The position numbers were made by a program, and so were the translations under genes. Positions 7,226 through 51,707 of a DNA stretch of 64,000 nucleotides are shown in pieces. The notes under the pieces are model-generated. The model was not told the DNA's origin and ran no database searches. It saw only the letters and a list, made by a program, of their open reading frames with translations. Numbering within the stretch: the first letter of the stretch is position 1; the number at the start of each line of letters is the position of its first letter. The DNA is from Candidatus Bathyarchaeota archaeon (GTDB lineage: Archaea > Thermoproteota > Bathyarchaeia > Bathyarchaeales > Bathyarchaeaceae): positions 4,436 to 68,435 of the forward strand of contig JARRMB010000008.1 in NCBI GenBank assembly GCA_037386325.1, written 5' to 3'.

Positions 7226-7231
7226 ATTTAT

Positions 7232-7930: not shown

Positions 7931-8018
7931 AAATCAACGCCTATAGCTGCCCCTTTACCTGTTGCTATTGCATTAATTATTGTAGCCGCACCATGAGAAA
8001 TTGCTTCGGCTTTCGCAT

Positions 8019-29594: not shown

Positions 29595-31331
29595 TTGAAA
29601 GAAACTCTGACAAGTTTTGACATAGCTGCAGCTTTAACCGAAATTAATCAATCTGCAGAAGGGGCGTACATAACTAAAATTTATCAAATCGACATAAAGA
29701 CTCTACTTTTCAAACTTCGGAAACCAAATGAACCAAAATTGCAGTTATTGATCGAAGCTGGAAAAAGGCTTCACTTAACATCATACGCTCATGAGATACC
29801 AAAAAAACCATCGGCTTTTTGCATGTCACTAAGAAAATATCTTGACAATAGTATTGTTAAAACAGTTAAACAACATGAATTTGAACGAATAGTAACTTTA
29901 CAATTAGGAACGCGACAAGGTGACTTTAGACTTATTTCAGAGCTTTTCGGTGGGGGAAATATCATTCTAGTTAACCCTGAAGGAATGATTCTGCAAGCGA
30001 TGACTTACAAAAGAATGCGTGATAGAAATATAATACGTAACGAATTATTTCAACAGCCTCCATCTATAGGAAAAAATCCAATTAACCTAAAACTTCAGGA
30101 TTTTCTGAAAATTAAAAACCTTGGAGAAATAGAGATTGTTAGAGCTTTAATTAAATTCTTAAGTATTAGTGGAACATACGCTGAAGAAATTCTTCTCCGG
30201 TCTAATATAAACAAGAAATTAAGTTGTAAAGAAATCACTGAAATGGATCTTAAAAAAATCTTTAATCAATTAGAGAGTCTTTTAAAAAGTATTGAGAATA
30301 GAAACCTAGAACCCTGTATAGTAAATGATGAAAACAATATTTGGATTGATGTGACTCCATTACCTCTAAAAAAATACGAAAATTTTACTCAGGAAAGTTA
30401 TAAGAGTTTCAACAGAGCACTCGACGATTATTTCGCGAAGATAACAAATGCTGAGATGGTGGAAGAAAGCAGTGAAGGAATGCAAAGTGAAGTTGCCAGG
30501 CAAAAAAGAATTTTAAAACGACAAATGATAGCTTTAGAGACCCTGAATGAACCAATTATTAAAAACAAAAAAATTGGAGACACAATTTATCTTCATTTTG
30601 GAGATTTACAATCACTTTTGCAAAAAATATTACAAGAAAAAAAGGAAGGAAAACCATGTATAGCAATAGAAACGCAATTACCAATGACCAAAAAACGAAA
30701 AAAAGATTGGTTTGAAAAATATAGATGGTTCTATTCTTCTGATAACTTTTTAATAATCGGAGGAAGGGACGCCACAACAAATGAGTTACTCATCAAAAAA
30801 CGAATGGACATCAAGGATATTGTCTTCCATGCTGAAATTGTAGGAGCTCCATTTGTTTTAATTAAAACAGAAGGAAATAGCCCACCTGAACAAACAATTA
30901 AAGAGGCAGCTCAGTTGGCAGCATCTTATTCGCGAGCTTGGAAAGAATCAGTCAGTGCAATAAATGTATATTGGATATATCCTAATCAAGTAACTAAAAC
31001 TCCTCCTTCTGGACAATCTCTTCAGAAAGGGTCCTTCATGATTCGGGGAACAAAAAATTTTGTTCGCGGAGTATCTCTAATAGTAGCAATTGGAGTAAAG
31101 GTGCAAGATGAACAAGTCATGATTATTGGTGGACCACCAACAGCTATTGCCCATCAGACAGGCGCTTTCGTTGAGGTTGTACAGGGAAGCCAAAAAAGCG
31201 GTAAACTAGCAAAACAAATAAGGCATCTATTATCAAAAAAGGTACCAGAAGATCTAAAGAGAAAGGTTACAGCTATTCCATTGGATGAAATACAAAGATT
31301 CATTCCATTGGGTAGAGGTAAAATAAAATAG
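29595..31331 (+). CDS. NFACT-family (Rqc2/RqcH, FbpA-like) ribosome quality control protein
   Basis: NFACT-N start (LTSFDIAA...KIYQ...), a central coiled coil, and NFACT-R/DUF814 (WFEKYRWFYSSDNFLIIGGRDATTNELL). TTG start. At 578 aa it may be shorter than usual in the coiled-coil region. Confidence 0.8.
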   Translation: MKETLTSFDIAAALTEINQSAEGAYITKIYQIDIKTLLFKLRKPNEPKLQLLIEAGKRLHLTSYAHEIPKKPSAFCMSLRKYLDNSIVKTVKQHEFERIVTLQLGTRQGDFRLISELFGGGNIILVNPEGMILQAMTYKRMRDRNIIRNELFQQPPSIGKNPINLKLQDFLKIKNLGEIEIVRALIKFLSISGTYAEEILLRSNINKKLSCKEITEMDLKKIFNQLESLLKSIENRNLEPCIVNDENNIWIDVTPLPLKKYENFTQESYKSFNRALDDYFAKITNAEMVEESSEGMQSEVARQKRILKRQMIALETLNEPIIKNKKIGDTIYLHFGDLQSLLQKILQEKKEGKPCIAIETQLPMTKKRKKDWFEKYRWFYSSDNFLIIGGRDATTNELLIKKRMDIKDIVFHAEIVGAPFVLIKTEGNSPPEQTIKEAAQLAASYSRAWKESVSAINVYWIYPNQVTKTPPSGQSLQKGSFMIRGTKNFVRGVSLIVAIGVKVQDEQVMIIGGPPTAIAHQTGAFVEVVQGSQKSGKLAKQIRHLLSKKVPEDLKRKVTAIPLDEIQRFIPLGRGKIK

Positions 31332-31392
31332 AATCTACTAGTTATTAAAAAAGTCAATTATTTAAAATAAAAAATAAAAGAAAAAGTAGATT

Positions 31393-31680
31393 TTATTTTT
31401 TAGTTTTTTTGGTGTAGCAATCCCAACATAATATTTCGCAGTTTTCTTGTGTAGGTTTTCCACCTTTTTCTGGACTAACAATCCAATGTGCTTCCCAACC
31501 TTTTTCACCATCTGGTGCCATGAAAGATTGTCCTCTTTTATTCCAATCAAGAACTCTCATGCACATAGAATTGTATTTATGTCCGTGTTCCACGATTAGG
31601 CATTCACATCTACCATCTGAAGCGCCAAAGGCTTTCTTTACTACTTCCTCTGGAAATTCAACCATTTCCTGATCCTCCAA
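31393..31680 (-). CDS. Small HNH-like zinc-finger protein with degenerate catalytic residues
   Basis: GRCEC...H.H...GWEAHWIVSPEKGG...NCEILCWDCY. The layout is that of small HNH nucleases, but HH is HW and the terminal C..CH is C..CY. Confidence 0.5.
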   Translation of the reverse strand: MEDQEMVEFPEEVVKKAFGASDGRCECLIVEHGHKYNSMCMRVLDWNKRGQSFMAPDGEKGWEAHWIVSPEKGGKPTQENCEILCWDCYTKKTKK

Positions 31681-31819
31681 TAAGTTTACAGCTTTTATCC
31701 AAATATCCTCTTTTAAACCTTATTGTGAAAAATATAAAAAATACAAAAACAAACAGAATTTAATATATTTTTAAAACTGGAATTAGAGTTGAAGAAAACT
31801 TTGTTTTTGAACAATTTTG

Positions 31820-33355
31820 TTAAAAACCATAAATCATTGAATATTTTTTATTGAGATAATTTAAGTAAGGTTCCACAGAGAGTTCTTTTCCTGTAATTAA
31901 TTCAATTAATTCAGGTGGATCATACAGATTTCCGTGACTATGAACATTATTTATCAACCATTGTTTAATATTTCCGAAATTCCCATTCATAATTTGAGTT
32001 CTCCAGTCTTGAATTTCAGTTTCCATATGCCCCAGAAGTTGTCCACTATAAATATTTCCCAATGCGTAACTTGGAAAATATCCATATGATCCACTTGCCC
32101 AATGAGTATCTTGCATTACCCCCTCAGAATCATTTTTAATTTGAACTCCTAAATATTTCATATAATATTCATTCCAAATCTGCGGAAGTTCATCAACTGA
32201 TATTTTTTCTAAGAAAAGATCTCGTTCAATATTGAATCTAATTATAATATGAAGACCATATGTGACTTCATCTGCCTCAATTCTAATCTTTGATGGCTTA
32301 ACATAATTGATAGCATAAACAAAATCATCTAAAGATATTTTAGAAAAAGTTTGACCAGTAAGGTTCTTAAATTTTGGAAAGAAATAATTCCAAAATTCCT
32401 TAGATCGACCAACAATGTTCTCCACAAAACGAGATTGAGATTCATGGAACCCCATTGAACAGGGATTTCCAATTGGTTGAAAAATCCAGTTTGACTTCAA
32501 ATTCTGCTCATAAATAGCATGACCACCCTCATGTAAGATAGAAAATACTGATGAAGCAAACTTATTTGGGTAAAAATGTGTTGTAATACGTACATCATCA
32601 TAATATCCAGTTGTAAATGGGTGTTCTGTTTCATCAATTCTACCTCCAGAATTACTTGTTTTTATATCATAGCCAATAAATTCTGCAAGTAACTCACCAA
32701 TTTTTTTCTGAATATCTATAGGTACTAAGCGTTCAAGAATTTTTGTTTCTGATTTTATGGATGTTGATTCACATTTTTTGATAAGGGAAACTAATCCGTT
32801 TTGGAGTTTGTTAAATATATTATTGATTCGTTCAGTAGTCATTTTTGGTTCGAAAATATCTAGGCATGCATCGTATGGTGTAGCTGTTTCTTTGACCTCC
32901 ATTAATATTTTAGCTGCTTGCTTCTTCAATTCAATAAGTTTTTCAAGTTCAGGTTTAAATTTTGGGAAATTTTTACTTGCTTTAGCTTTTTTCCAAATAT
33001 CAGTCGTTAAAGCTTCTTGTTTTGAGATTTCTACCACAAGATCTTCTGGAAGCTTTGTTTGCTCATCATAATTTTTTTGGATAAGAGACAAATTTCGTTT
33101 ATGAATAAGATCCAGATGATCATAATCGGGATGGGTTTTTGTCTTTTCAATTAAATGTTGAATCTCTGGATCTGTACTCATCCGGTGAGTGATTCGTCTA
33201 AGCATAGCCAATTGTAAACTCCGTATTTTAATTCCTTTAGGAGGCATCTTTGTTTCCATATCCCACCTAAGTATAGCAGCTGCTGTATGAAGAGAAATTA
33301 GATTTTTTGTTTTTTCTAGAAGTTTTTGATAACTCGGAATTGAAGATTCAATCAT
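31820..33355 (-). CDS. M32 carboxypeptidase (Taq type)
   Basis: 511 aa. HEGGHAIYE zinc site and M32-like length and layout. Confidence 0.9.
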   Translation of the reverse strand: MIESSIPSYQKLLEKTKNLISLHTAAAILRWDMETKMPPKGIKIRSLQLAMLRRITHRMSTDPEIQHLIEKTKTHPDYDHLDLIHKRNLSLIQKNYDEQTKLPEDLVVEISKQEALTTDIWKKAKASKNFPKFKPELEKLIELKKQAAKILMEVKETATPYDACLDIFEPKMTTERINNIFNKLQNGLVSLIKKCESTSIKSETKILERLVPIDIQKKIGELLAEFIGYDIKTSNSGGRIDETEHPFTTGYYDDVRITTHFYPNKFASSVFSILHEGGHAIYEQNLKSNWIFQPIGNPCSMGFHESQSRFVENIVGRSKEFWNYFFPKFKNLTGQTFSKISLDDFVYAINYVKPSKIRIEADEVTYGLHIIIRFNIERDLFLEKISVDELPQIWNEYYMKYLGVQIKNDSEGVMQDTHWASGSYGYFPSYALGNIYSGQLLGHMETEIQDWRTQIMNGNFGNIKQWLINNVHSHGNLYDPPELIELITGKELSVEPYLNYLNKKYSMIYGF

Positions 33356-33375
33356 TTTAAAACCATCTTTATTAT

Positions 33376-33888
33376 TTGACCCTCATTTCTACTATCCTAT
33401 TGGCATTGAATTACCTTTTAATATCTCTTCTTAAACTAAAAAAGCTGCAAACATTGAAGGTAACTGTTTTGAAAAAATGGAAAAAAATTGGAACACAACT
33501 TCTTTACAAGTCAAAGTTTGTATCAGTATTTAATGACAAGGTAATATTACCAAATAAACTGAAAATAGATTACACTAGAATTGAATTACAAGATTTTGTA
33601 TCTGTTATCTCAACTATTGAAGATAAAATTGTAATGATTGAAATTCTTAGATATCCTCAAAATTCTGTAAGTCTTGAGATTCCTAGTGGGCACGTTGAAG
33701 ATAACGAATCCACTGAAGAAGCTGCAGTTCGGGAATTGGAAGAGGAGTCAGGCTATAAAGCAGAAAAGATAACGAAAATAGGATATTTTTATCCATTATC
33801 GAGAAGCACACAACGTGCACATCCCTCCTACGATTATTGCACTCCAAAACTTTCTACTGAAAAGATTATTAGAAAAGTATTAATCTAA
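33376..33888 (+). CDS. NUDIX hydrolase (ADP-ribose pyrophosphatase-like), C-terminus looks truncated
   Basis: Nudix box GHVEDNESTEEAAVRELEEESGY. The likely start is the TTG at 33469 (LKKWKK...). The sequence after ...FYPLSRSTQR loses family resemblance and ends early. Confidence 0.7.
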   Translation: MTLISTILLALNYLLISLLKLKKLQTLKVTVLKKWKKIGTQLLYKSKFVSVFNDKVILPNKLKIDYTRIELQDFVSVISTIEDKIVMIEILRYPQNSVSLEIPSGHVEDNESTEEAAVRELEEESGYKAEKITKIGYFYPLSRSTQRAHPSYDYCTPKLSTEKIIRKVLI

Positions 33889-34070
33889 AAATGGATGGAT
33901 TGAAAATCAAATAAATAACGTAATAAGAGTATATTCAATTAAAATTTGTTAAGAAATATGATTAGTAGGAATTATTTTCAATAAATTAAGAAATAATTGT
34001 TGGAGGACTTGACATCAAAAGGCAATATTTATCGAAGGAAGACGTAGAGCATGTAGCTTTATTAGCTCAT

Positions 34071-34358
34071 ATGCAAATTTCTGAAAAAGAAAAAATTGTT
34101 TTTACAGATCAATTTAACGACATTCTCGAATACTTCAAAAAAATTGATTCAATAGATACAAAGGGTGTTAGTCCAACATATCATGTTTTGGAAATTAATA
34201 ATGTATCCAGGAATGATACTCCCAATATTTCATTAACTACCGAAGAAGCTTTACAAAACGCACCCAAAAAAGAAAAGAGAAAGAAGCTCTCAAAAAAGCA
34301 AAGAATATCGACAAAAAAATCGCTGAAGGAAAAAAAGTTGGAAAATTGGCTGGAATAG
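34071..34358 (+). CDS. gatC: Glu/Asp-tRNA amidotransferase subunit C (start and 3' end anomalous)
   Basis: Homology (LSKEDVEHVALLAHMQISEKEK...DTKGVSPTYHVL...EEALQNAPKKE) begins upstream at ~34029, with no canonical start codon between the stop at 33987 and 34071. After NAPKKE the frame becomes a Lys-rich out-of-frame reading of gatA. Confidence 0.75.
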   Translation: MQISEKEKIVFTDQFNDILEYFKKIDSIDTKGVSPTYHVLEINNVSRNDTPNISLTTEEALQNAPKKEKRKKLSKKQRISTKKSLKEKKLENWLE

Positions 34359-35599
34359 CGATTGCTGTAAAAGATGCTATTTGTACAAAAGGGATATTGA
34401 CAACCTGTTCTTCACGAATGCTTGAAAATTTTGTTCCCCCATATAATGCAGAAGTTATTGAACGTATCATCCAAGAAGATGGAATAATAATCGGCAAGAC
34501 AAACATGGATGAATTCGCAATGGGTTCATCAACAGAGACTAGTTATTTTGGTCCAACTCGCAATCCATGGGATTACTCGGCAGTTCCAGGCGGTTCTTCA
34601 GGTGGAAGTGCAGCATGCATCTCTACTGATGAAGCGATTCTTTCATTAGGAACTGACACTGGTGGATCAATTCGTTGTCCAGCAAGTTATTGTTCGGTTG
34701 TTGGTTTGAAACCAACCTATGGTTTGGTAAGTCGCTATGGACTAATAGCATATGCCAACAGCCTTGAACAGATTGGCCCTATAACCAAAAATGTTTATGA
34801 TTGTGCATTATTCCTATCAGTTATTGCAGGTCATGATCCCAAAGATAGCTCATCAGTTAAAGAATTACCCAAAGATTACACTAAATTCTTGAACAATAAT
34901 ATTGATGACCTTAAAATTGGTGTCCCAAAAGAATTTTTTGGAGAAGGAACAGACAAATCTGTAGAAAAACAGGTTTGGAAAGCAATTTATAAACTTGAAG
35001 AATTGGGAGCAAAATATGAAATTATTACACTTCCAACTCTTGAACAATCCCTTGCTACGTACTACATTATTGCAATGTCTGAAGCAAGTTCAAATCTGGC
35101 AAGATTTGATGGAATAAGATATGGTTATCGGATTGACAAAGATGATTCAGATTGGGCAACAGTATACGCAAAAGATAGAAGAGAGGGATTCGGTGCTGAG
35201 GTGAGACGTCGAATAATACTTGGAACATATGCTCTGTCTGCGGGTTATTATGATAAATATTATTTGAAAGCTCTTAGAGTTCGAACCCTCATTAGAAAAG
35301 ACTTTCAAAAAGTGTTTAAGAAATTTGATGTTATAATTGGTCCAACTATGCCGTTTCCTCCATTTAAAATTGGAGAAAAAATAGAAGATCCATTAGCTCT
35401 TTACAAGAGTGATGTGGATACAGTATCAGCGAATTTAGCAGGTGTTCCAGCGATATCAATCCCTTGTGGATTCACGAATAATCTTCCAATTGGATTACAA
35501 ATTATGGCACCATTACTCAGAGAAGATTTGTTATTACAGGTTGCATACACATATGAACAGAACACTGATTATAAAAATCAAAAACCTTCAATAGAGTGA
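34346..35599 (+). CDS. gatA: Glu/Asp-tRNA amidotransferase subunit A (N-terminally short)
   Basis: The amidase signature begins at once (LAGIAIAVKDAI...NMDEFAMGSSTE...GGSSGGSAA...GTDTGGSIR). About 33 further GatA-like codons (EKEALKKAKNIDKKIAEGKKVGK) lie upstream in frame without any start codon. Confidence 0.9.
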   Translation: MAGIAIAVKDAICTKGILTTCSSRMLENFVPPYNAEVIERIIQEDGIIIGKTNMDEFAMGSSTETSYFGPTRNPWDYSAVPGGSSGGSAACISTDEAILSLGTDTGGSIRCPASYCSVVGLKPTYGLVSRYGLIAYANSLEQIGPITKNVYDCALFLSVIAGHDPKDSSSVKELPKDYTKFLNNNIDDLKIGVPKEFFGEGTDKSVEKQVWKAIYKLEELGAKYEIITLPTLEQSLATYYIIAMSEASSNLARFDGIRYGYRIDKDDSDWATVYAKDRREGFGAEVRRRIILGTYALSAGYYDKYYLKALRVRTLIRKDFQKVFKKFDVIIGPTMPFPPFKIGEKIEDPLALYKSDVDTVSANLAGVPAISIPCGFTNNLPIGLQIMAPLLREDLLLQVAYTYEQNTDYKNQKPSIE

Positions 35600-35652
35600 A
35601 GTATTACGAATGATCTAGATCTTTACAAATAAACAAATCTTATGGTGGATCT

Positions 35653-36318
35653 ATGAACAAGCCTTATTTCCGTGAAATATTTGACCCCCAACTAGAAAAT
35701 CCAATTCTTATTGAAGGACTCACAGGTTTAGGAAATATAGGTTTGATTGCAGCAAGAAATTTAATAGAATTAACGGAAGCTAAAGTTTTTGCTGAATTAT
35801 ATGCACCTTATTTTCCAGATTATGTAATTGTAAAAAAGGATGGAACATGTCATCCTCCACGTTACCAATTTTATTCAGCTAAAACAAAGAATAATCATTA
35901 TATTATCTTGACAGGAATTTCTCAACCATCTATGGAAGACAGCTTAGCACACTATGACATATGTGATGAAATCTTAGACTTTGGAGAAAAATATGGAAGC
36001 AAATTCGTAGTCACAATCGGTGGAGTATCTACATCTAAACCAGCAAATGAAATCTATATTGCCGCTACCTCTGATGAATTAGCACAAAAATATGTAGACA
36101 AAGGAGTAAAAATTTACAGCGAAGGAAGAATTATTGGATCATCAGGTTTGTTGTTAGGACTAGCAAAAAGACGCGGTTGGAAGGGCATATGTCTGTTAGG
36201 AGCAGCAGCAGGTTTCGGAACAGAAAGACCAATTGCGCTTTCCCTCTTCAAAATTTTGGCAAACATTCTCGAAGAGAAGGAATTTCAAGAAAAAGATAAA
36301 AATTCTATTGATAAATAA
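35653..36318 (+). CDS. PAC2-family proteasome assembly chaperone (COG1938)
   Basis: 221 aa. PILIEGLTGLGNIGLIAA... start and overall PAC2 layout. Confidence 0.7.
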   Translation: MNKPYFREIFDPQLENPILIEGLTGLGNIGLIAARNLIELTEAKVFAELYAPYFPDYVIVKKDGTCHPPRYQFYSAKTKNNHYIILTGISQPSMEDSLAHYDICDEILDFGEKYGSKFVVTIGGVSTSKPANEIYIAATSDELAQKYVDKGVKIYSEGRIIGSSGLLLGLAKRRGWKGICLLGAAAGFGTERPIALSLFKILANILEEKEFQEKDKNSIDK

Positions 36319-36432
36319 AACAATTCCAATAAGTTATTAGTTTTAGAGCAAATACACTTAACGAAAAAACAAAGATTGAAAGAGAAAATCTCTTTCGCAG
36401 ATCGATATCTCATTTATTTAGAGAAAATGAAT

Positions 36433-36753
36433 TTATAACAGCATTGCTGGGATTTTGTTTGAATCTGTTAGTTGTAAAGCAATATTGACTTCATTAAAGT
36501 ATCTGATTACAGTTTTTCCTTTTTCAGTAATAGCATATCTAAGTTTTATTTTGTTTCTTTTCTTGTGTTTAATCTGTTCTTCTATTAGGTTTTGATTGAG
36601 AAGGAAATCCAAGTTTTGCTTTAGGACACTGCAGTTTACATTAGCTTTGTACATAATATGTGTCAGTTTTATAGGACCATTCTGGGCTATTACCTTTAGA
36701 ATGTCTATATACATCTCCATTTTTGATCTTCGCATAGATTTGACCTCTAACAT
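36433..36753 (-). CDS. Winged-helix DNA-binding protein (COG3432-like)
   Basis: RSKMEMYIDILKVIAQNGPIKLTHIMYKANVNCSVLKQNLDFLLNQNLIEE. Same family as 60781-61182. Confidence 0.6.
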   Translation of the reverse strand: MLEVKSMRRSKMEMYIDILKVIAQNGPIKLTHIMYKANVNCSVLKQNLDFLLNQNLIEEQIKHKKRNKIKLRYAITEKGKTVIRYFNEVNIALQLTDSNKIPAMLL

Positions 36754-37254
36754 ATGTTTTGTGCACGTTAAGGATCGATGATTTCATTTTTTAATACCAA
36801 AAAAATCATCCCACACCTTCACGTGAGTAGACAGCTTATTACTACAATTTCACCTAAAAACCTTGTTAAGTATCTTAGATATATCCTAATAATATAATTA
36901 ACAATAATTTTTGATTTTTTACGAAATATTCAAATCTTATATCTGCAAAAATTATCCGCAATAATTATAAATATTTACAAAAAAATGTCAAAAAATAATT
37001 TTTCTAAATTGTTAAATAGATATTAGAAATATTGAGATTCAATTTGAATTGATCAATTAAATAAGATTAACTCTCATTATTTCTATAAACTAAGTATCAA
37101 ACTAAAATATTTGGAGAAGAATTTTTGACATAAAATCAGATGTTAAAAAATATTGAAGGTGTAGTCGAAAAATTATATTGAGATGCCAAGTTAATTCTTG
37201 GTATCTGTACAAATGCTTTATTATTATCTAATGTTGTGTCATGAGTGAATTCAT

Positions 37255-38910
37255 TTGTCGATTATAGTTAAACTTAGAAAAGAATTCTCTTTCATTAAAG
37301 AAAATATTTTAATCAATACTATCTCGTTAACCATAATTCTCGTTACTGCTGCAATACCTTACACATATTATCCTAAATACGTCTTAGGATTAGGAGGATC
37401 TGCATCAATTGTTGGGCTTTTGGGATTTGCATCTTATGTAACACTTGCATTAGTGCAAATACCTGGGGGATATCTGGCAGATAGACATGGAAGAAGACGA
37501 TTAATTGTCATGATGACGTTTGCTATTTCGTCGACCTATTTCCTTTTCGCTATTGCTCCTAATTGGCAGTTTTTACTAATTGCAACAATATTACAAAACC
37601 TATTCATGATTTATCAACCAGCACATCAAGCACTTGTTGCAGATTCAACACCTCCAGAAAAGAGAGGACTAGGGTTTTCAATAATCAATTTGCTCCATTA
37701 TATTTCAGTTCCTTCACCCATAATTGCGGGTATTTTGGTTGTCCAGTTTGGATTGATTTCAGGAATGCAAATTGGATATCTCATTGTCTCTATTGCATTT
37801 TTTGTAGTTGCCATTTTGAGAATTCAATTCAAAGAAACTTTGAATAAGACTTTGGAACGAATACAGTTATCGAATATAATTAAAAGCCTTCCAAGATCGT
37901 TTGCAGAAAGTATTAAAGCATTAAAAGAATCCTCAAACCCAATGCTATTTCTTTTCATTAGTTTTGTGATCTACCATTTTGCGTGGTTTATGTGTTCAAG
38001 TTACTTAATTTTATATGCAACTGAGGTTGCAAATATTCCAGATTTCGAATGGGCAACCCTGTGGACGTGGTTTGCAGTAGTGAATATACTCGCGGCTTTA
38101 CCTTGCGGTAAAATCGTTGACAGATTTGGACGAAAAAGACCATTAACAATAGCGTGGTTTCTTTTTATCCCTGGTTTAGTTGGGTTTGTAATAGGAAACA
38201 TAATTTTAATTTCAGTGAGTTTACTTTTTTTGGGTGTTGCTTTGATTTTGGCAAACACCGCGTATCCTGCGTTAATAGCAGATTTTGTGGTCAGGGAGAA
38301 TCGAGGAAAGATAATTGGTAGCACAAACTTTTTCTTTAATATTTTTAGCGGTTTAGGTCAGCTCTTTGGAGGCTTTTTATATGAATACCTCTCCCCAGCT
38401 CTTCCTTTTATTTTTTCAGCAATTTTGTTTGTTCCCTGCTTTCTTTTAACATTGAGTTCATCAATTGTAAGTTTTCCATTGTGCAAAATTGTAGCAATTA
38501 AAACTCCATATATTCCAAGATTTTCAAGATCTATTAATTCTTGCAGATTTCTTATTCCCCCGCCAACTATTATGTCAATCTCAACAGTTTCAAGAAGTTT
38601 GTTTAATGAACCTAGGTTTATTCCATATTCTGTTCCTACTCGATCCAAATCTAAAACTATTATTTGTTTAACTCCCAAGTTTTCAAAGTTTTTAGCTGCC
38701 AAAAAAATATCAAGCTTGGAAAGAGATTCTGAATTGGTTAATATTTTTAGCGGTTTAGGTCAGCTCTTTGGAGGCTTTTTATATGAATACCTCTCCCCAG
38801 CTCTTCCTTTTATTTTTTCAGCAATTTTGTTTGTTCCCTGCTTTCTTTTAACATTGCTCCTCGGACACCATGGACAGCAACACCATTTAAAATGTCGATT
38901 ACAGGAATAA
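37255..38910 (+). CDS. MFS transporter; the native protein probably ends near 38455-38470, and the listed ORF is a read-through
   Basis: GGYLADRHGRRR (MFS loop 2-3 motif), a second DRFGRKR and about 12 hydrophobic segments in the first ~400 aa. Beyond R1 the frame reads the antisense of a HisA-like fragment, then a second copy of its own last TM segment. Confidence 0.8.
   Translation: MSIIVKLRKEFSFIKENILINTISLTIILVTAAIPYTYYPKYVLGLGGSASIVGLLGFASYVTLALVQIPGGYLADRHGRRRLIVMMTFAISSTYFLFAIAPNWQFLLIATILQNLFMIYQPAHQALVADSTPPEKRGLGFSIINLLHYISVPSPIIAGILVVQFGLISGMQIGYLIVSIAFFVVAILRIQFKETLNKTLERIQLSNIIKSLPRSFAESIKALKESSNPMLFLFISFVIYHFAWFMCSSYLILYATEVANIPDFEWATLWTWFAVVNILAALPCGKIVDRFGRKRPLTIAWFLFIPGLVGFVIGNIILISVSLLFLGVALILANTAYPALIADFVVRENRGKIIGSTNFFFNIFSGLGQLFGGFLYEYLSPALPFIFSAILFVPCFLLTLSSSIVSFPLCKIVAIKTPYIPRFSRSINSCRFLIPPPTIMSISTVSRSLFNEPRFIPYSVPTRSKSKTIICLTPKFSKFLAAKKISSLERDSELVNIFSGLGQLFGGFLYEYLSPALPFIFSAILFVPCFLLTLLLGHHGQQHHLKCRLQE
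38336..38454. repeat. 119-bp direct repeat, copy R1 (3' end of the MFS gene)
   Basis: Identical base for base to 38738-38856 by manual alignment. Encodes NIFSGLGQLFGGFLYEYLSPALPFIFSAILFVPCFLLTL. Confidence 0.95.
38455..38737 (-). pseudogene. HisA-like (COG1411, proFAR isomerase-related) protein, C-terminal ~95 codons only
   Basis: Minus strand: ...SLSKLDIFLAAKNFENLGVKQIIVLDLDRVGTEYGINL...DIIVGGGIRNLQELIDLENLGIYGVLIATILHNGKLTIDELN. Bracketed by R1 and R2. Confidence 0.75.
38738..38856. repeat. 119-bp direct repeat, copy R2 (sits inside the HisA-like gene)
   Basis: Identical to 38336-38454. Lies between the N-terminal and C-terminal remnants of the HisA-like gene. Confidence 0.95.
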
Positions 38911-38920
38911 TTTTCATCAT
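38857..38920 (-). pseudogene. HisA-like (COG1411) protein, N-terminal 21 codons
   Basis: ATG at 38920 or 38917, then MMKIIPVIDILNGVAVHGVRG, the typical family start. It then runs into R2 and a stop. Confidence 0.7.
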
Positions 38921-38954
38921 GATCTCATACAATAAGAATAGTTGATGATAAAGT

Positions 38955-40178
38955 TTGAATCTTTTGATCGTTGAGTATATTTCTGGAGGAGGATATTCTA
39001 ACCAAAAGCTTTCAGGAAACATCCTAAGCGAAGCTTACGGAATGTTACGAAATATAATCTCAGATTTCAAAGCATTAGGACATCAAGTTACAACTTTAAT
39101 AGACTCAAGATTAATAGCGTTTAATCCACCAAATGAAGCAGACAGAATGATAACCATTTCATCTGTCAAACAATTTTATACAAAAATAAAAGATATTTCA
39201 AAATCTGCTGATGCCGTTTATTTTATCGGACCTGAGTCAAATAATTTGCTTGAAAAACTTGTTGAAACTACTTCAAATTCAGACGTAAAATCGCTCAATT
39301 CTGAAATTAATGACATAAAAGTTTGTTCAAATAAGAAAAATATTTATGAAATAGCGAAAAAAATTGGATTAATAGTTCCAGAAACAGAAATAATAGATAG
39401 TCATGATAAATTTGAGAACATTAAGAAAATAATCAAAGATTTTGGATATCCCTTGGTGATTAAACCATTAATAGGGGTTGGTTGTAGTGGGTTAATTATT
39501 GTCAAAGAGAAATCAAACCTTTCTGATGCTATTTCGAAAGTATCAAAAGAATCTAATAATAGCCAGTTCATCGCTCAGAAATTCATTGAAGGACAACCTG
39601 CAAGCGTGAGTGTAATTTCTACAGGAACAAAAGCTGTATCTGTTTCATTAAACAAGCAATTTGTAAATCTAACAGATCCTTACAATGAACCTAAATATTC
39701 TGGGGGGGTTGTTCCATTAGATCATGAGTTAAAAAAGAACTCATTGAGGGATGCTAAACATTTGGTTGAAGCATTCAATGGTTTAAAGGGTTACATTGGA
39801 GTTGATATAATATTAACAAACGAGGAAGTAGTAATTATGGAAGTTAATCCTCGACTTACAACATCATATATTGGATTAAGAAAAATAGTAAATTTCAATA
39901 TAGCTGAAGCAATCACAAAAGCGACAATTCAAAGAAATTTACCGAAGAATATAGAAAAAAGAGGTTATTCATTCTTCTCAAAGGTTCAAGTTCCTCCAAA
40001 ATTAAAATTTCTTCGTGAAACATATCATATAAAGAACATTATATCTCCACCATTTCCAATTGAATTAAAAAAATCAGCAACTGCTTTGATTTCTACAACG
40101 TCATCAACAGAAAAAGGAACACAACAAGCATTTTACCGGACAAAAAAGCGATTGTTAAAAATTTATGGTGAAAGTTAA
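38955..40178 (+). CDS. ATP-grasp enzyme of the methanofuran/H4MPT cofactor cluster (MfnD / Orf5-like ligase)
   Basis: 407 aa. LLIVEYISGGGYS start typical of these cluster ATP-grasp proteins, with a central ATP-grasp core (GYPLVIKPLIGVGCSG...IMEVNPR). TTG start. Confidence 0.7.
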   Translation: MNLLIVEYISGGGYSNQKLSGNILSEAYGMLRNIISDFKALGHQVTTLIDSRLIAFNPPNEADRMITISSVKQFYTKIKDISKSADAVYFIGPESNNLLEKLVETTSNSDVKSLNSEINDIKVCSNKKNIYEIAKKIGLIVPETEIIDSHDKFENIKKIIKDFGYPLVIKPLIGVGCSGLIIVKEKSNLSDAISKVSKESNNSQFIAQKFIEGQPASVSVISTGTKAVSVSLNKQFVNLTDPYNEPKYSGGVVPLDHELKKNSLRDAKHLVEAFNGLKGYIGVDIILTNEEVVIMEVNPRLTTSYIGLRKIVNFNIAEAITKATIQRNLPKNIEKRGYSFFSKVQVPPKLKFLRETYHIKNIISPPFPIELKKSATALISTTSSTEKGTQQAFYRTKKRLLKIYGES

Positions 40179-40275
40179 ATGGTAAATGTTTTAGGTCTCG
40201 ATATCGGAGGCGCTAACATTAAAGCTGCTTTCCTAGAAACCAAAAACGCAAAACTCATAGAACATAAAGAATTAA

Positions 40276-41166
40276 TTGAATATTTATGGTGTCGGTGTTA
40301 CAATTACTGCCGAACTTTCAGATGCTTTTAAAACCAAAAAAGAGGGAATCAAACATATTCTAGAAACCATAATCGAAGTTTTTACCAATGTTCCGAAATT
40401 TATTGTGGATGTAGAAGCAAACCTCCTTTCAGTAGAAGATGCATTACAAAAACCGTACAGAGTAGCATCTGCGAATTGGGCTGCAACAGGTTGGATGATT
40501 TCAAAGTTAATCAAAAACTGCATCACGATCGATGTGGGAAGCACAACAACTAGTATTATCCCAATAGTAAATGGGAAGGTTTATGCCAAAGGTAAAACAG
40601 ATCTTGAAAAACTTCAGAATGGAGAACTCGTTTATTCGGGATCAATACGAACAAATGTTGCCACAATTAATAATTGGATTCCAGTTAATGGAATAAACAC
40701 TAGGGTGTCATCAGAATTCTTTGCTCAATCAGGTGACGTTCACATAATTCTTGAAAACATAATCAAAGACGATTACATTACTGAAACTCCAGATAATAGA
40801 GGAAAAACCAAGATAGAATCTATGGCAAGATTGGCGAGAGTTGTTTGCGCAGATATTGAAATGTTAACCGAACAAGAGATTACTGAAATGGCTAAATTCG
40901 TTTACGATAAACAGGTCGATCAAATCGCTGAGGGTTTAGAACAAGTTAGTAATAGAGTAAGGACTTTAACTCAAAATAAGTTAAAGTTAGTAGTTACTGG
41001 GTTAGGAAGAAAATTTTTGGCTAAGAAAGCTGCTGAAAAAATTGGTTTTAGAAATATAATAGATATGGACGAATATTTGGGGGATAAATCAGCAATCGGT
41101 TCAACATCTGTTGCTGTAGGACTGATGGTTGCAAGTAATTTGGAGAAACAAGATATAAAATGGTAA
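40276..41166 (+). CDS. COG1548 ASKHA-fold protein of the H4MPT/methanofuran cluster (hydantoinase-like); N-terminus in another frame
   Basis: VTITAELSDAFKTKKEGI... The expected N-terminus MVNVLGLDIGGANIKAAFL... is encoded from the ATG at 40179, directly after the ATP-grasp stop, in frame 0. The gene body is in frame +1. Confidence 0.75.
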   Translation: MNIYGVGVTITAELSDAFKTKKEGIKHILETIIEVFTNVPKFIVDVEANLLSVEDALQKPYRVASANWAATGWMISKLIKNCITIDVGSTTTSIIPIVNGKVYAKGKTDLEKLQNGELVYSGSIRTNVATINNWIPVNGINTRVSSEFFAQSGDVHIILENIIKDDYITETPDNRGKTKIESMARLARVVCADIEMLTEQEITEMAKFVYDKQVDQIAEGLEQVSNRVRTLTQNKLKLVVTGLGRKFLAKKAAEKIGFRNIIDMDEYLGDKSAIGSTSVAVGLMVASNLEKQDIKW

Positions 41167-41825
41167 CAGTATTGAAAGTTGGGGGAAGTTTAGTACAAGA
41201 TCCTAATATTTTAAAGCGATTATGCCATGAATTGAGTATCCTAGCCAAAGATTACAAAATTATAATCGTTCCAGGAGGAAGTAATTTTGCTGATACTGTA
41301 AGAGAATTTGATAAAAAATATAATATCTCATTTTCAATTGCACACAAAATGGCTATACTTGCGATGGATCAATATGGATTATTTCTCTCTGATTTGATGT
41401 CAGAGTCTTATGTTTCATATTCGCTTAAGAATGTAGTAAACAACAAAGAAGGAAATCTTCCAATTTTTTTGCCATCTCGTATAATGTTTCGTGAAAATCC
41501 TTTAGAGAATTCTTGGAACACAACCTCTGATTCGATAGCAGCATATATTGCTAATTTACTAAGTGCCGAGAAACTTCTAATAGTTAAAGACGTTGATGGA
41601 ATTCTATCTCAAGATCCAAAACAAAGTATTAACGCCAAATTGGTTAACGAGCTGACTGCTCAAGAATTAATTGAATGGAATATAACAACTAGTGTCGACA
41701 AATCATTACCTAAAATTCTTCTTCAAACAAAGCTAGATTGTTACATTGTTAATGGAAAATTCCCTAAGAGAATAAAACAAATAATGGAAAATAAGAAATC
41801 AGTATGCACACATATCATAATTTAA
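41160..41825 (+). CDS. Amino-acid-kinase-fold protein (COG2054-like; MfnE-type kinase candidate)
   Basis: 221 aa. VLKVGGSL...IIVPGGSNFAD...VKDVDGI are aspartokinase/uridylate kinase-fold motifs, in cofactor cluster context. Confidence 0.7.
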   Translation: MVTVLKVGGSLVQDPNILKRLCHELSILAKDYKIIIVPGGSNFADTVREFDKKYNISFSIAHKMAILAMDQYGLFLSDLMSESYVSYSLKNVVNNKEGNLPIFLPSRIMFRENPLENSWNTTSDSIAAYIANLLSAEKLLIVKDVDGILSQDPKQSINAKLVNELTAQELIEWNITTSVDKSLPKILLQTKLDCYIVNGKFPKRIKQIMENKKSVCTHIII

Positions 41826-42547
41826 TTTGAAGTAATATTATGAATTTCTTTTACAAACTCGACCACTTTTTCTTTTTCAAGTTTACCATTTAAACGATCA
41901 GTATTCGTACAAAGTGCTCCTCTAAAACCAATAATATCTGCACCTAAATTATATACAGACTCAATATCTTGTTTTCTTAAAGAACCAGCAAGAGCAACAA
42001 GTAAATTACGCGAGTGCGCTGAAATAACAAAATCTTTTAGTTGATTTATTTTAAAAAAATTAAACAGATTTGACTTTACATCCTTTATCTTGACATCAAT
42101 TAGAACTCCATCAGCGTTTGCTTTACAAGCTATATCCGGAAGTTTTAAAGGATTTATGCATCCAATTTTTTTATAATCCGCATAACCAGAAGCAATTATC
42201 TTTAACCTATTGTCATACTCTTTTACTGCCTGAACAACTTCAGCAAGTAATGTTATTGAATCTTGAAGACTTTTAACACCAAAAAGTCCAACCTTCACAT
42301 ACCTTACTCCAGAAACAGCTGCACCAAGAGCAGCAAGAGCAGCTGTTCCAGGTAGATTAGGCATATCACCAATGGTTGCACTTAATTCAATATTTTCGGG
42401 GATAATACCCTTGATCTCTTTAATAACTCTAGGAAAATTTGCACCTAGCGAACCTTCTTTTGGATTTTTAACGTCAATGATATGGGCTCCTCCCTCAACA
42501 CTTTCCATAGCTTCGTTTCGATTAACAACACTTACTAGCAATTTCAA
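41822..42547 (-). CDS. mfnB: 4-(hydroxymethyl)-2-furancarboxaldehyde-phosphate synthase (MfnB, DUF556/COG1891)
   Basis: MKLLVSV...GGAHIIDVKNPKEGSLGANFP...YVKVGL...LAGSL...GFRGALC closely resembles MJ1099-type MfnB as I recall it. Confidence 0.8.
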   Translation of the reverse strand: MKLLVSVVNRNEAMESVEGGAHIIDVKNPKEGSLGANFPRVIKEIKGIIPENIELSATIGDMPNLPGTAALAALGAAVSGVRYVKVGLFGVKSLQDSITLLAEVVQAVKEYDNRLKIIASGYADYKKIGCINPLKLPDIACKANADGVLIDVKIKDVKSNLFNFFKINQLKDFVISAHSRNLLVALAGSLRKQDIESVYNLGADIIGFRGALCTNTDRLNGKLEKEKVVEFVKEIHNITSN

Positions 42548-50846: not shown

Positions 50847-51707
50847 ATGAGAGATAATAAAATTATGGCTGATGGTTTTTCTAAAATTCTAGTCACAGGA
50901 GGTGCAGGATTCATCGGTAGTCATTTAGTGGATCGTTTAATTAAAAATGGATATACAGTTCGGGTTATAGATGATCTTTCTACCGGAGAAAAACAAAATA
51001 TAGCTCACCATAAAAATAATGAATCCTTTCAATTTATTGAAGGGGACATTAGAGATTTTAATTTAGTGAAAAAATGGGTTAAAGACGTTGATGTAGTATT
51101 TCATGAAGCCGCGTTAGTTAGTGTCTCACTTTCGGTCGAAGACCCATTGCTTTCAAACGAAATCAATGTTAAAGGAAGTTTGAATTTACTCAAAGCATCA
51201 GTGGATGCTAATGTAAAACGGTTTATCTATGCATCATCTTGTGCAATATATGGAGACACAAAGGAACTGCCGATCATTGAAAATTTTTCCGGCGATCCGC
51301 TGTCTCCATACGCAGCTGATAAATTGGCGGTTGAAAAATATGCTAAAGTAATTAACGATTCATACGAGATTGAAACGGTCGGACTGCGTTATTTTAATGT
51401 TTATGGGTCTAGACAAAAATATGGACCTTATAGTGGAGTTATTTCAATTTTTATTAATAAACTTCTAGAGGATAAGGTTCCAACAATTTTTGGAGACGGA
51501 GAACAAACAAGGGATTTTGTTAATGTTAAAGACGTAATAGAGGCAAATATGCTTGCTTTATCTATATATTCTGAAGCTAGACCGGGAGACATCAAACATA
51601 GTTACGCTGATATTTCTAAAGCTCAAAAAATTTTGGAATATGAACCACAAATTCAGATTAGCGATGGACTAGAAAAATTAATACAATATTCATTGAAACA
51701 TAAATAG
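50847..51707 (+). CDS. NAD-dependent sugar epimerase (GalE/WbpP-like), apparently lacking an internal segment
   Basis: VTGGAGFIGSHL, SSCAIYG, YAADK and RYFNVYG motifs. ...VIEANMLAL runs straight into SIYSEARPGDIKHSYADISKA, skipping about 35-45 residues usually present. Confidence 0.8.
   Translation: MRDNKIMADGFSKILVTGGAGFIGSHLVDRLIKNGYTVRVIDDLSTGEKQNIAHHKNNESFQFIEGDIRDFNLVKKWVKDVDVVFHEAALVSVSLSVEDPLLSNEINVKGSLNLLKASVDANVKRFIYASSCAIYGDTKELPIIENFSGDPLSPYAADKLAVEKYAKVINDSYEIETVGLRYFNVYGSRQKYGPYSGVISIFINKLLEDKVPTIFGDGEQTRDFVNVKDVIEANMLALSIYSEARPGDIKHSYADISKAQKILEYEPQIQISDGLEKLIQYSLKHK

What the first reader, a model, noticed from the sequence alone, without database searches (positions are those of the whole stretch)
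38336..38920. Perfect 119-bp direct repeat brackets a fragment of a HisA-like cofactor gene and creates a 551-codon MFS read-through ORF
By manual base-by-base alignment, 38336-38454 (R1) and 38738-38856 (R2) are identical (119/119).

- The repeat encodes the last TM segment of the MFS transporter.
- The 283 bp between the copies is, on the minus strand, the C-terminal ~95 residues of a COG1411 HisA-like barrel.
- The first 21 residues of that family (MMKIIPVIDILNGVAVHGVRG) lie immediately beyond R2.
- The roughly 100 central residues are missing, and R2 sits exactly where they should be.
- The plus-strand MFS frame stays open through R1, the antisense fragment and R2, which inflates the ORF to 551 codons.

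An R-X-R structure with a co-located deletion could have three origins. It could be a templated-insertion or template-switch repair scar, in which a nearby sequence was copied into a break. It could be a Campbell-type integration of a 402-bp circle. Or it could be a chimeric assembly or amplification artefact. I see no transposase, integrase or short terminal inverted repeats.
Basis: partly seen in the sequence, partly recalled or inferred. Interest (0 to 1): 0.6.

Follow-up and report, generated by a model that had tools for sequence, protein, structure and literature searches.

The report
Misassembled repeat in a metagenome genome
The perfect 119-bp repeat, the broken HisA-like gene and the 551-codon transporter ORF are really in this deposited sequence, but they are almost certainly a sequencing or assembly error in a metagenome-assembled Bathyarchaeota genome, not a feature of the organism.

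Summary
38336-38454 and 38738-38856 are identical (119/119), and this is the only long repeat in the window. It brackets 283 bp that encode, on the minus strand, residues ~142-237 of a 243-aa HisA/HisF-related protein. Residues 1-20 lie just beyond R2, and the MFS frame runs on to 551 codons.

The interpretation as biology fails. Six same-species contigs from other assemblies (96-98% identical) are collinear with each other. The five that span this locus carry an intact 411-aa MFS gene facing an intact 243-aa HisA-like gene.

Across ~24 kb compared at DNA level, the window has eight private lesions of 82-355 bp. Several hit genes such as gatC/gatA and a shikimate-pathway kinase. The window has no homopolymer of 8 nt or more in 64 kb, where ~25 are expected. 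Nine of the eleven such runs in relatives lie inside the segments the window lacks.

Sibling genomes from the same NCBI submission show their own private deletions, an inverted insertion and a join to foreign DNA.

Best reading: sequence dropped out at homopolymer runs, the gaps were collapsed, and one gap was mis-filled with a copy of sequence from 402 bp upstream. The verdict is that this is not a real feature. The public protein MEJ2280541.1 is chimeric.

The parts
37255..38910 (+). 551-codon chimeric ORF (NCBI MEJ2280541.1, 'MFS transporter'). Only codons 1-400 are genuine MFS sequence.
   Evidence: ORF list; exact look-up in the protein collection; Pfam MFS_1 E 1e-46 on residues 28-262. 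Close relatives are 411 aa and align 1-400.
38336..38454 (.). R1, the native copy of the 119-bp segment. It encodes MFS residues 361-400.
   Evidence: Contiguous with upstream sequence in the alignment to L007 1-2895, L011 and L012.
38454..38455 (.). Junction J1. 98 bp of native sequence (L007 2896-2993) are missing: the MFS tail FRVHDPTIREV and stop, the spacer, and the 3' end of the HisA-like gene. There is no microhomology.
   Evidence: The native segment carries a T7 run in L007.
38455..38748 (-). X, an island of native sequence encoding residues ~142-237 of the HisA/HisF-related protein. It includes the 11-nt overlap with R2.
   Evidence: 98.3% identical to L007 2994-3287; Pfam His_biosynth 152-228/228; TIGR00734 154-221/221; protein alignment.
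38738..38748 (.). The 11 nt ttaatattttt shared by the native end of X and the native start of R. This is where the X/R2 join was made.
   Evidence: Both occurrences are present in intact L007, at 2777-2787 and 3277-3287.
38738..38856 (.). R2, the extra copy of R. It sits where 355 bp of native sequence should be (L007 3288-3642, HisA-like residues ~21-140, containing two T8 runs). It ends at exactly the same base as R1.
   Evidence: R2 is absent from L007, L011, L012, L010 and L014.
38857..38919 (-). First 20-21 codons of the HisA/HisF-related gene (MMKIIPVIDILNGVAVHGVRG).
   Evidence: Translation; alignment to residues 1-20 of the L007 orthologue.
38955..40178 (+). ATP-grasp gene, MfnD-like and below the family cut-off. 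It is intact and was used as the anchor for finding relatives.
   Evidence: Pfam ATP-grasp_3; NCBIfam MfnD_Meth 140 bits against a cut-off of 400; relatives.
40285..40286 (.). Neighbouring lesion of the same kind. 83 bp are missing (L007 5072-5154, containing an A8 run). This splits the 356-aa TIGR03123/MfnF-like gene into ORFs 40179-40331 and 40276-41166.
   Evidence: The 83 bp are present in L007, L008 and L009.

Best explanation
**Claim.** R-X-R is a technical artefact of how this metagenome-assembled genome was produced. It is not a rearrangement in the organism.

**Shown.**
- The native locus is A-R-T-X-C-B: an MFS gene facing an intact 243-aa HisA/HisF-related gene.
- In this contig, sequence is missing wherever the native genome carries an A/T homopolymer of 8 nt or more.
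- The missing stretches (82-355 bp) are closed up without Ns.

**Inferred.**
- Reads or k-mers containing such runs were lost, through a filter, the sequencing platform or a coverage-based contig update. That left coverage gaps at T (98 bp) and C (355 bp), with X (294 bp) as a small island between them.
- The gap to the right of X was then mis-filled with sequence from 402 bp upstream, which is mate-pair distance and about one short read in length.
- The fill was joined through the 11-nt overlap ttaatattttt. It ran until it hit the same dead end where the A-R contig stops before the T gap. That is why both copies end at the same base.
- The remaining gaps were abutted.

**Consequence.** The 551-codon ORF is a by-product.
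For: 1. **Intact relatives.** Six same-species contigs from other assemblies (L007 Logan; L008 and L012 ENA scaffolds; L009, L011 and L037 ENA k119 contigs; 96-98% nt identity to the window) show no indel over 6 nt where they overlap, apart from a 100-N scaffold gap in L008. L007, L011 and L012 carry the intact MFS (411 aa) and HisA-like (243 aa) genes. 24 further relatives also have a full-length HisA-like gene.
2. **Many private lesions.** The window has eight lesions, all net losses, in the ~24 kb that could be compared. They sit at 7914, 11401-11428, 30658, 33823, 34276, 38454, 38748-38856 and 40285. A ninth, near 51563, is seen by protein comparison only. They truncate gatC/gatA, a GHMP-type kinase in the shikimate operon, a NUDIX gene and an NFACT gene. 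Six of the eight are out of frame.
3. **Homopolymer signature.**
   - The window has 439, 206 and 93 runs of 5, 6 and 7 nt, but none of 8 nt or more.
   - Relatives have 11 distinct runs of 8 nt or more in ~28.5 kb, so ~25 are expected in the window.
   - Nine of those 11 lie inside the 1,294 bp the window lacks (binomial P ~2e-10).
   - At the other two sites the window alone has a substitution that breaks the run.
   - Seven of the eight lesions contain or abut an A8, T8 or A9 run.
4. **Same pattern in sibling genomes of the same NCBI submission.**
   - L010 lacks 85 bp and 153 bp at two A8 sites.
   - L013, 99.4-100% identical to the window, has a private 297-bp deletion. It ends in 313 bp of unrelated, clearly more GC-rich DNA.
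   - L014 has an inverted ~114-bp insertion and a 148-bp deletion.
5. **A second mis-fill.** 11401-11428 is an inverted copy of 11527-11554 and replaces ~104 bp of native sequence.
6. **Literature.** Local assembly errors, duplicated sequence at scaffold gaps and unsupported consensus are documented in metagenome-assembled genomes (PMC7111523).
Against: - No reads were available, so lack of read support at the three junctions is inferred, not shown.
- The step that removes homopolymer runs is unidentified. The study could not be found.
- The T segment lost at J1 has only a T7 run in L007 and T5CT in L011. A T8 in the window's own strain is therefore assumed.
- Junctions J1 and J3 have no overlap. 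De Bruijn assemblers cannot create such joins on their own. A scaffolding, gap-closing or N-stripping step, or chimeric reads, must be postulated.
- The lost sequence extends mainly to the right of the runs. I cannot explain this.
- No contig of exactly the same strain covers 38336-38920 (L013 stops at 38194). The comparison is therefore with strains 2-4% divergent.
Confidence: 0.72

Rival explanations
1. Library-level chimeras. The junctions existed in DNA molecules made in vitro. A polymerase stalled at homopolymer runs and switched template during whole-genome or PCR amplification. The assembler then faithfully used those chimeric reads to bridge regions that had no other coverage. This is still an artefact, but it arose in the test tube rather than in software.
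For: - The three junctions need real k-mers unless a gap-closing or scaffolding step made them.
- Microhomology of 5-11 nt occurs at several junctions: 11 nt at X/R2, AACAG at 7914, CACATC at 33823.
- There is one inverted templated insertion in the window and one in L014.
- L013 contains an inter-genome join.
- MDA chimeras prime at 2-21 nt of complementarity (PMC1855051).
Against: - In MDA, chimeras joining segments less than 10 kb apart are 337 inverted to 11 direct (PMC1855051). In the window, seven of the eight lesions have only direct junctions and one is inverted.
- Several junctions have no microhomology (J1, J3, 34276, 40285).
- Template switching does not explain why every run of 8 nt or more is absent. 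It also does not explain the two surviving sites, where the run is broken by a substitution.
- There is no information that the sample was amplified.
Confidence: 0.18
2. Real in vivo repair scar. In this strain a break or stalled fork at the end of the MFS gene was repaired by replication with serial template switches (MMBIR/FoSTeS-like). The copying order was A-R, a jump to X, a jump back to R through the 11-nt microhomology, a run to the break, then a join to B. This destroyed the HisA-like gene and extended the MFS ORF.
For: - The insertion is templated from 402 bp upstream.
- There is an 11-nt microhomology at one junction.
- Both R copies end at the same base, as expected if that base marks a break.
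- No same-strain contig shows the native arrangement at this exact site (L013 ends at 38194).
Against: - The locus is intact in every other contig of the species and genus.
- It would be one of at least eight gene-destroying lesions in ~24 kb, including gatC/gatA and shikimate-pathway genes, with otherwise normal 97-98% identity. Extrapolated to a genome, that is hundreds of lesions, which is not a viable cell.
- The lesions track a technical covariate, homopolymers of 8 nt or more.
- They recur as different private lesions in sibling assemblies.
Confidence: 0.05
3. Campbell-type integration of a 402-bp circle (R+X) by homologous recombination at R.
For: The R-X-R geometry, with a 402-bp period.
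Against: - X is not foreign. It is the native neighbour of R, in native order and orientation, 98% identical to L007.
- An excised native circle would contain T, which is absent.
- The recipient would need a prior 800-bp deletion joining R to B.
- No integrase or recombinase lies nearby.
- The same contig has eight other lesions without this geometry.
Confidence: 0.01

Closest known systems
Local assembly errors and collapsed or mis-filled scaffold gaps in metagenome-assembled genomes (Chen, Anantharaman, Shaiber, Eren & Banfield 2020, PMC7111523)
   Same: - The consensus differs from all independent assemblies.
- There is duplicated sequence next to a gap.
- Protein-coding genes are truncated or fused, and the errors have propagated into public databases.
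- Errors cluster within one pipeline's output.
   Different: - Here the gaps carry no Ns.
- They are tied to homopolymers of 8 nt or more.
- The duplicate is separated from its source by a 283-bp island rather than lying directly across the gap.
- Lack of read support could not be checked.
Chimeras from multiple displacement amplification (Lasken & Stockwell 2007, PMC1855051)
   Same: - Short-range rearrangements with intervening deletions.
- 2-21 nt of complementarity at many junctions.
- Occasional inverted copies and inter-molecular joins.
   Different: MDA chimeras under 10 kb are about 30:1 inverted, whereas the window's lesions are overwhelmingly direct. MDA does not predict the loss of every homopolymer of 8 nt or more.
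Templated insertions from microhomology-mediated break-induced replication or fork stalling and template switching (recalled from the literature, not read here)
   Same: A nearby sequence is copied into a breakpoint, with microhomology at a switch point and an accompanying deletion.
   Different: That is an in vivo event, normally single and heritable. Here it is one of many lesions that follow a technical covariate, and it is absent from all relatives.
HisA/HisF-related protein TIGR00734 (COG1411) in the cluster with ATP-grasp, TIGR03123/MfnF-like, MfnE-like and MfnB genes
   Same: The intact orthologues (243 aa) match TIGR00734 end to end. They sit next to the same neighbours as in other archaea.
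   Different: - The score of 153.5 is below the family cut-off of 179.85.
- In the window only residues 1-20 and 142-237 are present.
- The function of this family is not established. From memory I first took this gene to be MfnF. NCBIfam assigns MfnF to the hydantoinase-like neighbour instead.

Membership tests
Local assembly error / collapsed gap in a MAG | The structure is absent from independent assemblies of the same species | tested here: met
   L007, L011 and L012 (96-98% identity) and the more distant L010 and L014 all have one R and an intact 243-aa gene.
Local assembly error / collapsed gap in a MAG | The same contig or pipeline shows other errors of the same kind | tested here: met
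   Seven further lesions lie in the ~24 kb compared at DNA level, plus one seen by protein comparison. Sibling MAG contigs L010, L013 and L014 have private lesions and a foreign-DNA join.
Local assembly error / collapsed gap in a MAG | Errors follow a technical covariate rather than biology | tested here: met
   No homopolymer of 8 nt or more in 64 kb. Nine of 11 native runs fall in the missing 1,294 bp, P ~2e-10.
Local assembly error / collapsed gap in a MAG | The consensus at the junctions lacks support from any read | not testable with these tools
   No read data are accessible.
MDA chimera | Short-range junctions are predominantly inverted (337 vs 11 for under 10 kb) | tested here: not met
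   Seven of the eight DNA-verified lesions have only direct junctions and one is inverted (11401-11428).
MDA chimera | 2-21 nt of complementarity at the junction | tested here: inconclusive
   0, 11 and 0 nt at J1, J2 and J3. 5-8 nt at three other lesions and 0 at two.
MDA chimera | The sample DNA was amplified with phi29 polymerase | not testable with these tools
   The study was not identified.
In vivo templated insertion (MMBIR/FoSTeS type) | The inserted sequence is copied from a nearby template | tested here: met
   R2 equals R1, which lies 402 bp upstream, 119/119.
In vivo templated insertion (MMBIR/FoSTeS type) | Microhomology at the switch points | tested here: inconclusive
   11 nt at X/R2 and none at R1/X or R2/B.
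In vivo templated insertion (MMBIR/FoSTeS type) | The rearrangement is present in the organism's DNA | not testable with these tools
   Needs reads or PCR. Indirectly disfavoured: it is absent from all relatives and accompanied by many lethal-looking lesions.
Campbell-type integration of a circle | The segment between the repeats is extra DNA relative to the empty site | tested here: not met
   X is native sequence in native position and orientation. Native T and C are missing instead.
Campbell-type integration of a circle | A recombinase or integrase, or an attachment site, is associated | tested here: not met
   The neighbours are PAC2, HTH_45, MFS, ATP-grasp, hydantoinase-like, AA-kinase and MfnB genes.
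TIGR00734 HisA/HisF-related protein (COG1411) | The score reaches the curated cut-off (179.85 bits) | tested here: not met
   The intact L007 orthologue scores 153.5 bits and the window fragment 50.4 bits. They are related to the family but not certified members.
TIGR00734 HisA/HisF-related protein (COG1411) | Full-length barrel of about 221-243 residues | tested here: not met
   The window holds residues 1-20 and 142-237 only, in different frames. Relatives are full length.
Major facilitator superfamily (Pfam MFS_1) | The score is above the gathering threshold | tested here: met
   159.8 bits against 33.4. Only codons 1-400 are MFS. Codons 401-551 are antisense HisA-like sequence plus the R2 copy.

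The most novel reading that the evidence does not exclude
The rearrangement is real. In one Bathyarchaeota strain, replication stalled at A/T homopolymer tracts and restarted by serial template switching. That left clustered deletions and templated insertions, direct at 38738-38856 and inverted at 11401-11428, across tens of kilobases. This would be an archaeal counterpart of chromoanasynthesis, caught in environmental DNA, perhaps from dying or polyploid cells.
Probability: 0.03. Interest if true: 0.55.

Novelty: not a real feature. Interest (0 to 1): 0.1.

Why it matters
As biology it does not matter. The organism most likely has an ordinary 411-aa MFS transporter gene facing an ordinary 243-aa HisA/HisF-related gene, as all its relatives do.

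As quality control it matters modestly, for three reasons.
- A public protein record (MEJ2280541.1, 551 aa) is a chimera of a transporter, antisense sequence and a duplicated segment.
- Neighbouring genes in the same contig are truncated by the same process. These include the TIGR03123/MfnF-like gene, gatC/gatA, a shikimate-pathway kinase, a NUDIX gene, an NFACT gene and an epimerase.
- The complete absence of homopolymers of 8 nt or more is a simple screen. It could flag this whole series of genomes, and any pathway-completeness or pseudogene inference drawn from them.

Tried and rejected
- **Exact look-ups.** Look-ups of the window's own proteins in the contig index found nothing. Relatives were reached instead through a homology search and through 90% cluster members.
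- **Species representatives.** The one genome-contig scan gave only 54-58% identical Bathyarchaeota. These were useful for synteny but too distant for junction analysis.
- **JGI metagenomes.** A 30-nt pattern from the end of R found nothing. The protein-based scan gave only 70-79% relatives.
- **Finding the study.** Searches for the assembly accession, WGS prefix, SRA run and topic found nothing. The assembler and library method remain unknown.
- **Pathway decay.** I considered that the lesions reflect decay of the methanofuran/H4MPT-linked cluster. I rejected this because the same kind of lesion hits gatC/gatA, NFACT, NUDIX, shikimate-pathway and epimerase genes elsewhere.
- **Insertions in relatives.** I considered that the 'missing' segments are insertions in the relatives. 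I rejected this because they encode conserved protein cores. For example, HisA-like residues 21-140 are present in 24 or more relatives.
- **MDA chimeras.** I considered these as the cause and downgraded the idea, because the direct-to-inverted ratio is the opposite of the published one.
- **MEGAHIT k-mer size.** 119 is, from my own knowledge, a default MEGAHIT k, and related ENA contigs are named k119_. This is a lead only. A unitig assembler cannot place the same k-mer twice in one contig, and I could not tie the number to any step.
- **A wrong recollection.** My initial memory that the HisA-like gene is MfnF was wrong. NCBIfam puts MfnF on the hydantoinase-like neighbour.
- **Biased control.** A check that 10 long window proteins have the same length as their cluster mates is biased towards intact ORFs. 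It does not show that the rest of the window is clean. DNA comparison of 3-11513 found two more lesions.
Full report
**1. The observation.** The window carries two identical 119-nt segments at 38336-38454 (R1) and 38738-38856 (R2), 402 nt apart.
- The bases flanking the two copies differ, so the length is exact.
- No other long repeat exists in the 64 kb.
- The plus-strand ORF 37255-38910 is 551 codons. It is a public protein record, MEJ2280541.1, 'MFS transporter', from a Candidatus Bathyarchaeota metagenome-assembled genome, on a contig of 71,324 bp.
- On the minus strand, 38455-38748 encodes a fragment matching the C-terminal third of the His_biosynth barrel (Pfam positions 152-228 of 228, E 2e-18; TIGR00734 positions 154-221 of 221).
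- 38857-38919 encodes MMKIIPVIDILNGVAVHGVRG in a different frame.

**2. The native locus.** A homology search with the adjacent ATP-grasp protein, and the 90% cluster of the MFS protein, led to same-species contigs from other assemblies.
- These are L007 (Logan, SRR24270822), L008 and L012 (ENA scaffolds), and L009, L011 and L037 (ENA contigs named k119_). All are 96-98% identical to the window in DNA.
- They show no indel larger than 6 nt where they overlap, apart from a 100-N scaffold gap in L008.
- L007, L011 and L012 show PAC2, HTH_45, an MFS gene of 411 aa, then a convergent HisA/HisF-related gene of 243 aa. L007 continues with the ATP-grasp gene, a 356-aa TIGR03123/MfnF-like gene and an MfnE-like kinase.
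- A further 24 more distant loci also carry a full-length 243-aa gene.
- Writing the native order as A-R-T-X-C-B, the window is A-R-X-R-B.
  - It lacks T: L007 2896-2993, 98 bp. This covers the last 11 MFS codons, the spacer, and the stop codon and last ~6 codons of the HisA-like gene.
  - It lacks C: L007 3288-3642, 355 bp, HisA-like residues ~21-140.
  - It has R2 in place of C.
- The X/R2 join uses 11 nt, ttaatattttt, which occur natively at both the start of R and the end of X. The R1/X and R2/B joins have no overlap. Both copies of R stop at the same base.

**3. The locus is not alone.** Wherever the window could be compared at DNA level (3-11513 and 29969-42366, about 24 kb), it shows private net losses against all relatives. 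A ninth is seen by protein comparison only.

| Window position | Change | Consequence |
|---|---|---|
| 7914/7915 | 82 bp lost | GHMP-type kinase of the shikimate operon: 232 aa instead of 290 |
| 11401-11428 | ~104 bp replaced | by an inverted copy of 11527-11554 |
| 30658/30659 | 264 bp lost, in frame | NFACT-family gene |
| 33823/33824 | 123 bp lost | NUDIX gene |
| 34276/34277 | 187 bp lost | end of gatC and first 48 codons of gatA removed: 417 aa instead of 488 |
| 38454/38455 | 98 bp lost (T) | the finding itself |
| 38748-38856 | 355 bp replaced by R2 (C) | the finding itself |
| 40285/40286 | 83 bp lost | MfnF-like gene split |
| near 51563 | 37 codons missing | epimerase; protein comparison only |

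An organism with this density of disrupting deletions, including in the only route to Gln-tRNA in archaea, would not be viable. Yet the retained sequence is a normal 97-98% identical to relatives.

**4. The lesions follow a technical covariate.**
- The window has 439, 206 and 93 homopolymer runs of 5, 6 and 7 nt, and none of 8 nt or more.
- Same-species contigs from other assemblies have 11 distinct runs of 8 nt or more in ~28.5 kb. About 25 are therefore expected in 64 kb.
- Nine of those 11 runs lie inside the 1,294 bp that the window lacks (binomial P about 2e-10).
- At the other two sites the window alone has a substitution that breaks the run (A8 to GA7 at 39356-39363; A8 to AAAACAAA at 41618-41625). 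All other relatives keep A8.
- Seven of the eight lesions contain or abut an A8, T8 or A9 run in the native sequence. Two begin exactly at a T8. C contains two T8 runs.
- The exception is T, which has T7 in L007 and T5CT in L011.
- All breakpoints lie within 183 bp of a run, which is roughly one to one and a half short-read lengths.

**5. The pattern is specific to one data producer.** Contigs of sibling genomes in the same NCBI submission show their own private lesions.
- L010 (GCA_037386505.1) lacks 85 bp and 153 bp at two A8 sites. Its only A8 sits exactly at the edge of one lesion.
- L013 (GCA_037386525.1) is 99.4-100% identical to the window over 35058-38194.
  - It has a 297-bp deletion inside the MFS gene that the window does not have.
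  - It ends in 313 bp of unrelated, clearly more GC-rich DNA.
- L014, from the same genome bin but only 84% identical, has an inverted ~114-bp insertion in the MFS gene and a 148-bp deletion in the ATP-grasp gene.
- The six contigs from other assemblies have none of this.

**6. Mechanism.**
- *Shown.* Sequence around homopolymers of 8 nt or more is absent and the gaps are closed without Ns. Two gaps contain short copies of nearby sequence, one direct (R2) and one inverted (11401-11428).
- *Inferred.*
  - Reads or k-mers containing such runs were lost. That left coverage gaps at T and C, with X as a 294-bp island between two runs that lie 343 bp apart.
  - The gap to the right of X was filled with sequence from mate-pair distance upstream. 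The fill was joined through the 11-nt overlap and extended until the same dead end where the A-R contig stops before T. This accounts for the identical right-hand ends of R1 and R2.
  - The residual gaps were abutted.
- *Not explained.* I could not identify the responsible step. I cannot explain why losses extend mainly to the right of the runs. Nor can I explain why R is exactly 119 nt, which is a default MEGAHIT k value from my own knowledge and also about one read length. These are leads only.
- Published descriptions of local assembly errors in metagenome-assembled genomes fit the general picture (PMC7111523).

**7. Rivals.**
- *Library-level chimeras* remain possible (about 0.18), because de Bruijn assembly alone cannot invent junctions with no overlap. 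However, the published MDA spectrum for short-range chimeras is 337 inverted to 11 direct (PMC1855051). That is the opposite of what is seen here, and it does not predict the homopolymer rule.
- *A real in vivo template-switch scar* fits the local geometry but none of the context (about 0.05).
- *Campbell-type integration of a 402-bp circle* is contradicted. X is native DNA in its native place, T is missing, and there is no recombinase (about 0.01).

**8. Comparison with what is known, and verdict.**
- The genes themselves are ordinary.
  - The MFS_1 transporter scores well above threshold.
  - The HisA/HisF-related protein matches TIGR00734 end to end but scores below its cut-off.
  - It sits in the conserved cluster with MfnB, an MfnD-like ATP-grasp gene, a TIGR03123/MfnF-like gene and an MfnE-like gene.
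- The R-X-R structure belongs with local assembly errors in metagenome-assembled genomes.
- It is not a real feature of the organism, and interest is low.
- The practical yield is threefold. One public protein is chimeric. Several neighbouring genes in this contig are falsely truncated. The absence of homopolymers of 8 nt or more is a quick screen for the affected genomes.

Noticed in passing
window 1-64000: No homopolymer run of 8 nt or more anywhere in 64 kb of 33% GC sequence (runs of 5, 6 and 7 nt: 439, 206 and 93). Same-species contigs from other assemblies have about 0.4 such runs per kb.
   Followed up: yes
window 7914/7915: 82 bp are missing relative to L037 (3678-3759), starting exactly at a T8 run with 5-nt microhomology AACAG. 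This truncates a GHMP-type kinase in the shikimate operon to 232 aa, against 290 aa in L037.
   Followed up: yes
window 11401-11434 and 11521-11554: A 34-nt inverted repeat (97% complementary). 11401-11428 is an inverted copy of 11527-11554 that replaces about 104 bp of native sequence (L037 87-190, containing a T8 run).
   Followed up: yes
window 30658/30659, 33823/33824, 34276/34277: Three further private deletions relative to L011: 264 bp in frame (NFACT-family gene), 123 bp (NUDIX gene, CACATC microhomology) and 187 bp. The last removes the end of gatC and the first 48 codons of gatA, leaving 417 aa instead of 488.
   Followed up: yes
window 40285/40286: An 83-bp deletion containing an A8 run splits the 356-aa TIGR03123/MfnF-like gene into ORFs 40179-40331 and 40276-41166. 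The 83 bp are present in L007, L008 and L009.
   Followed up: yes
window 50847-51707 (near 51563): The SDR/epimerase protein (286 aa, MEJ2280556.1) lacks 37 internal residues compared with its closest relative P0264 (323 aa). This is probably another lesion of the same kind. It was seen at protein level only.
   Followed up: partly
window 23236-23859: This hypothetical protein is 207 aa, while most 90% cluster mates are 238 aa. It is identical over the first 207 residues. One ENA member is also 207 aa, so it is unclear whether this is a lesion or a natural variant.
   Followed up: partly
window 39356-39363 and 41618-41625: At the only two native A8 sites where the window is not deleted, the window alone has a substitution that breaks the run (GAAAAAAA and AAAACAAA). 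This may mean the assembly passed through on error-containing reads.
   Followed up: partly
L013 2682 and 2840-3152 (GCA_037386525.1, JARRLZ010000232.1): A sibling-genome contig of essentially the same strain has a private 297-bp deletion inside the MFS gene (window 37740-38036). It also ends in 313 bp of unrelated, more GC-rich DNA, so it is an inter-genome chimera.
   Followed up: yes
L014 688-801 and 2081-2087; L010 9250 and 10138-10143: Other sibling-genome contigs carry an inverted ~114-bp insertion in the MFS gene, a 148-bp deletion in the ATP-grasp gene, and 85-bp and 153-bp deletions at A8 sites. GCA_037386525.1 holds MFS loci of two different species (99% and 84% identical to the window), so the bin is mixed.
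   Followed up: partly
L008 1131-1230: An independent ENA scaffold of the same species has a 100-N gap covering native R(+25) to X(+48), which is 240 bp in L007. The same AT-rich gene-end region is hard to assemble in another data set.
   Followed up: no
L003 7225-7957: In a more distant Bathyarchaeota genome (MFD09779.bin.2.126) the HisA-like gene is split into overlapping ORFs of 159 and 109 aa. This looks like a frameshift, possibly a sequencing error.
   Followed up: no
window 15861-17306 and 38955-42547: The contig encodes a bifunctional Fae/Hps. It also encodes a cluster of MfnB, an MfnD-like ATP-grasp gene, a TIGR03123/MfnF-like gene, an MfnE-like kinase and a HisA/HisF-related gene. 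In relatives L001, L002 and L004 a 401-aa ORF (not run against any family library) lies between the MFS and HisA-like genes. This is the H4MPT/methanofuran-linked gene set in Bathyarchaeota.
   Followed up: partly
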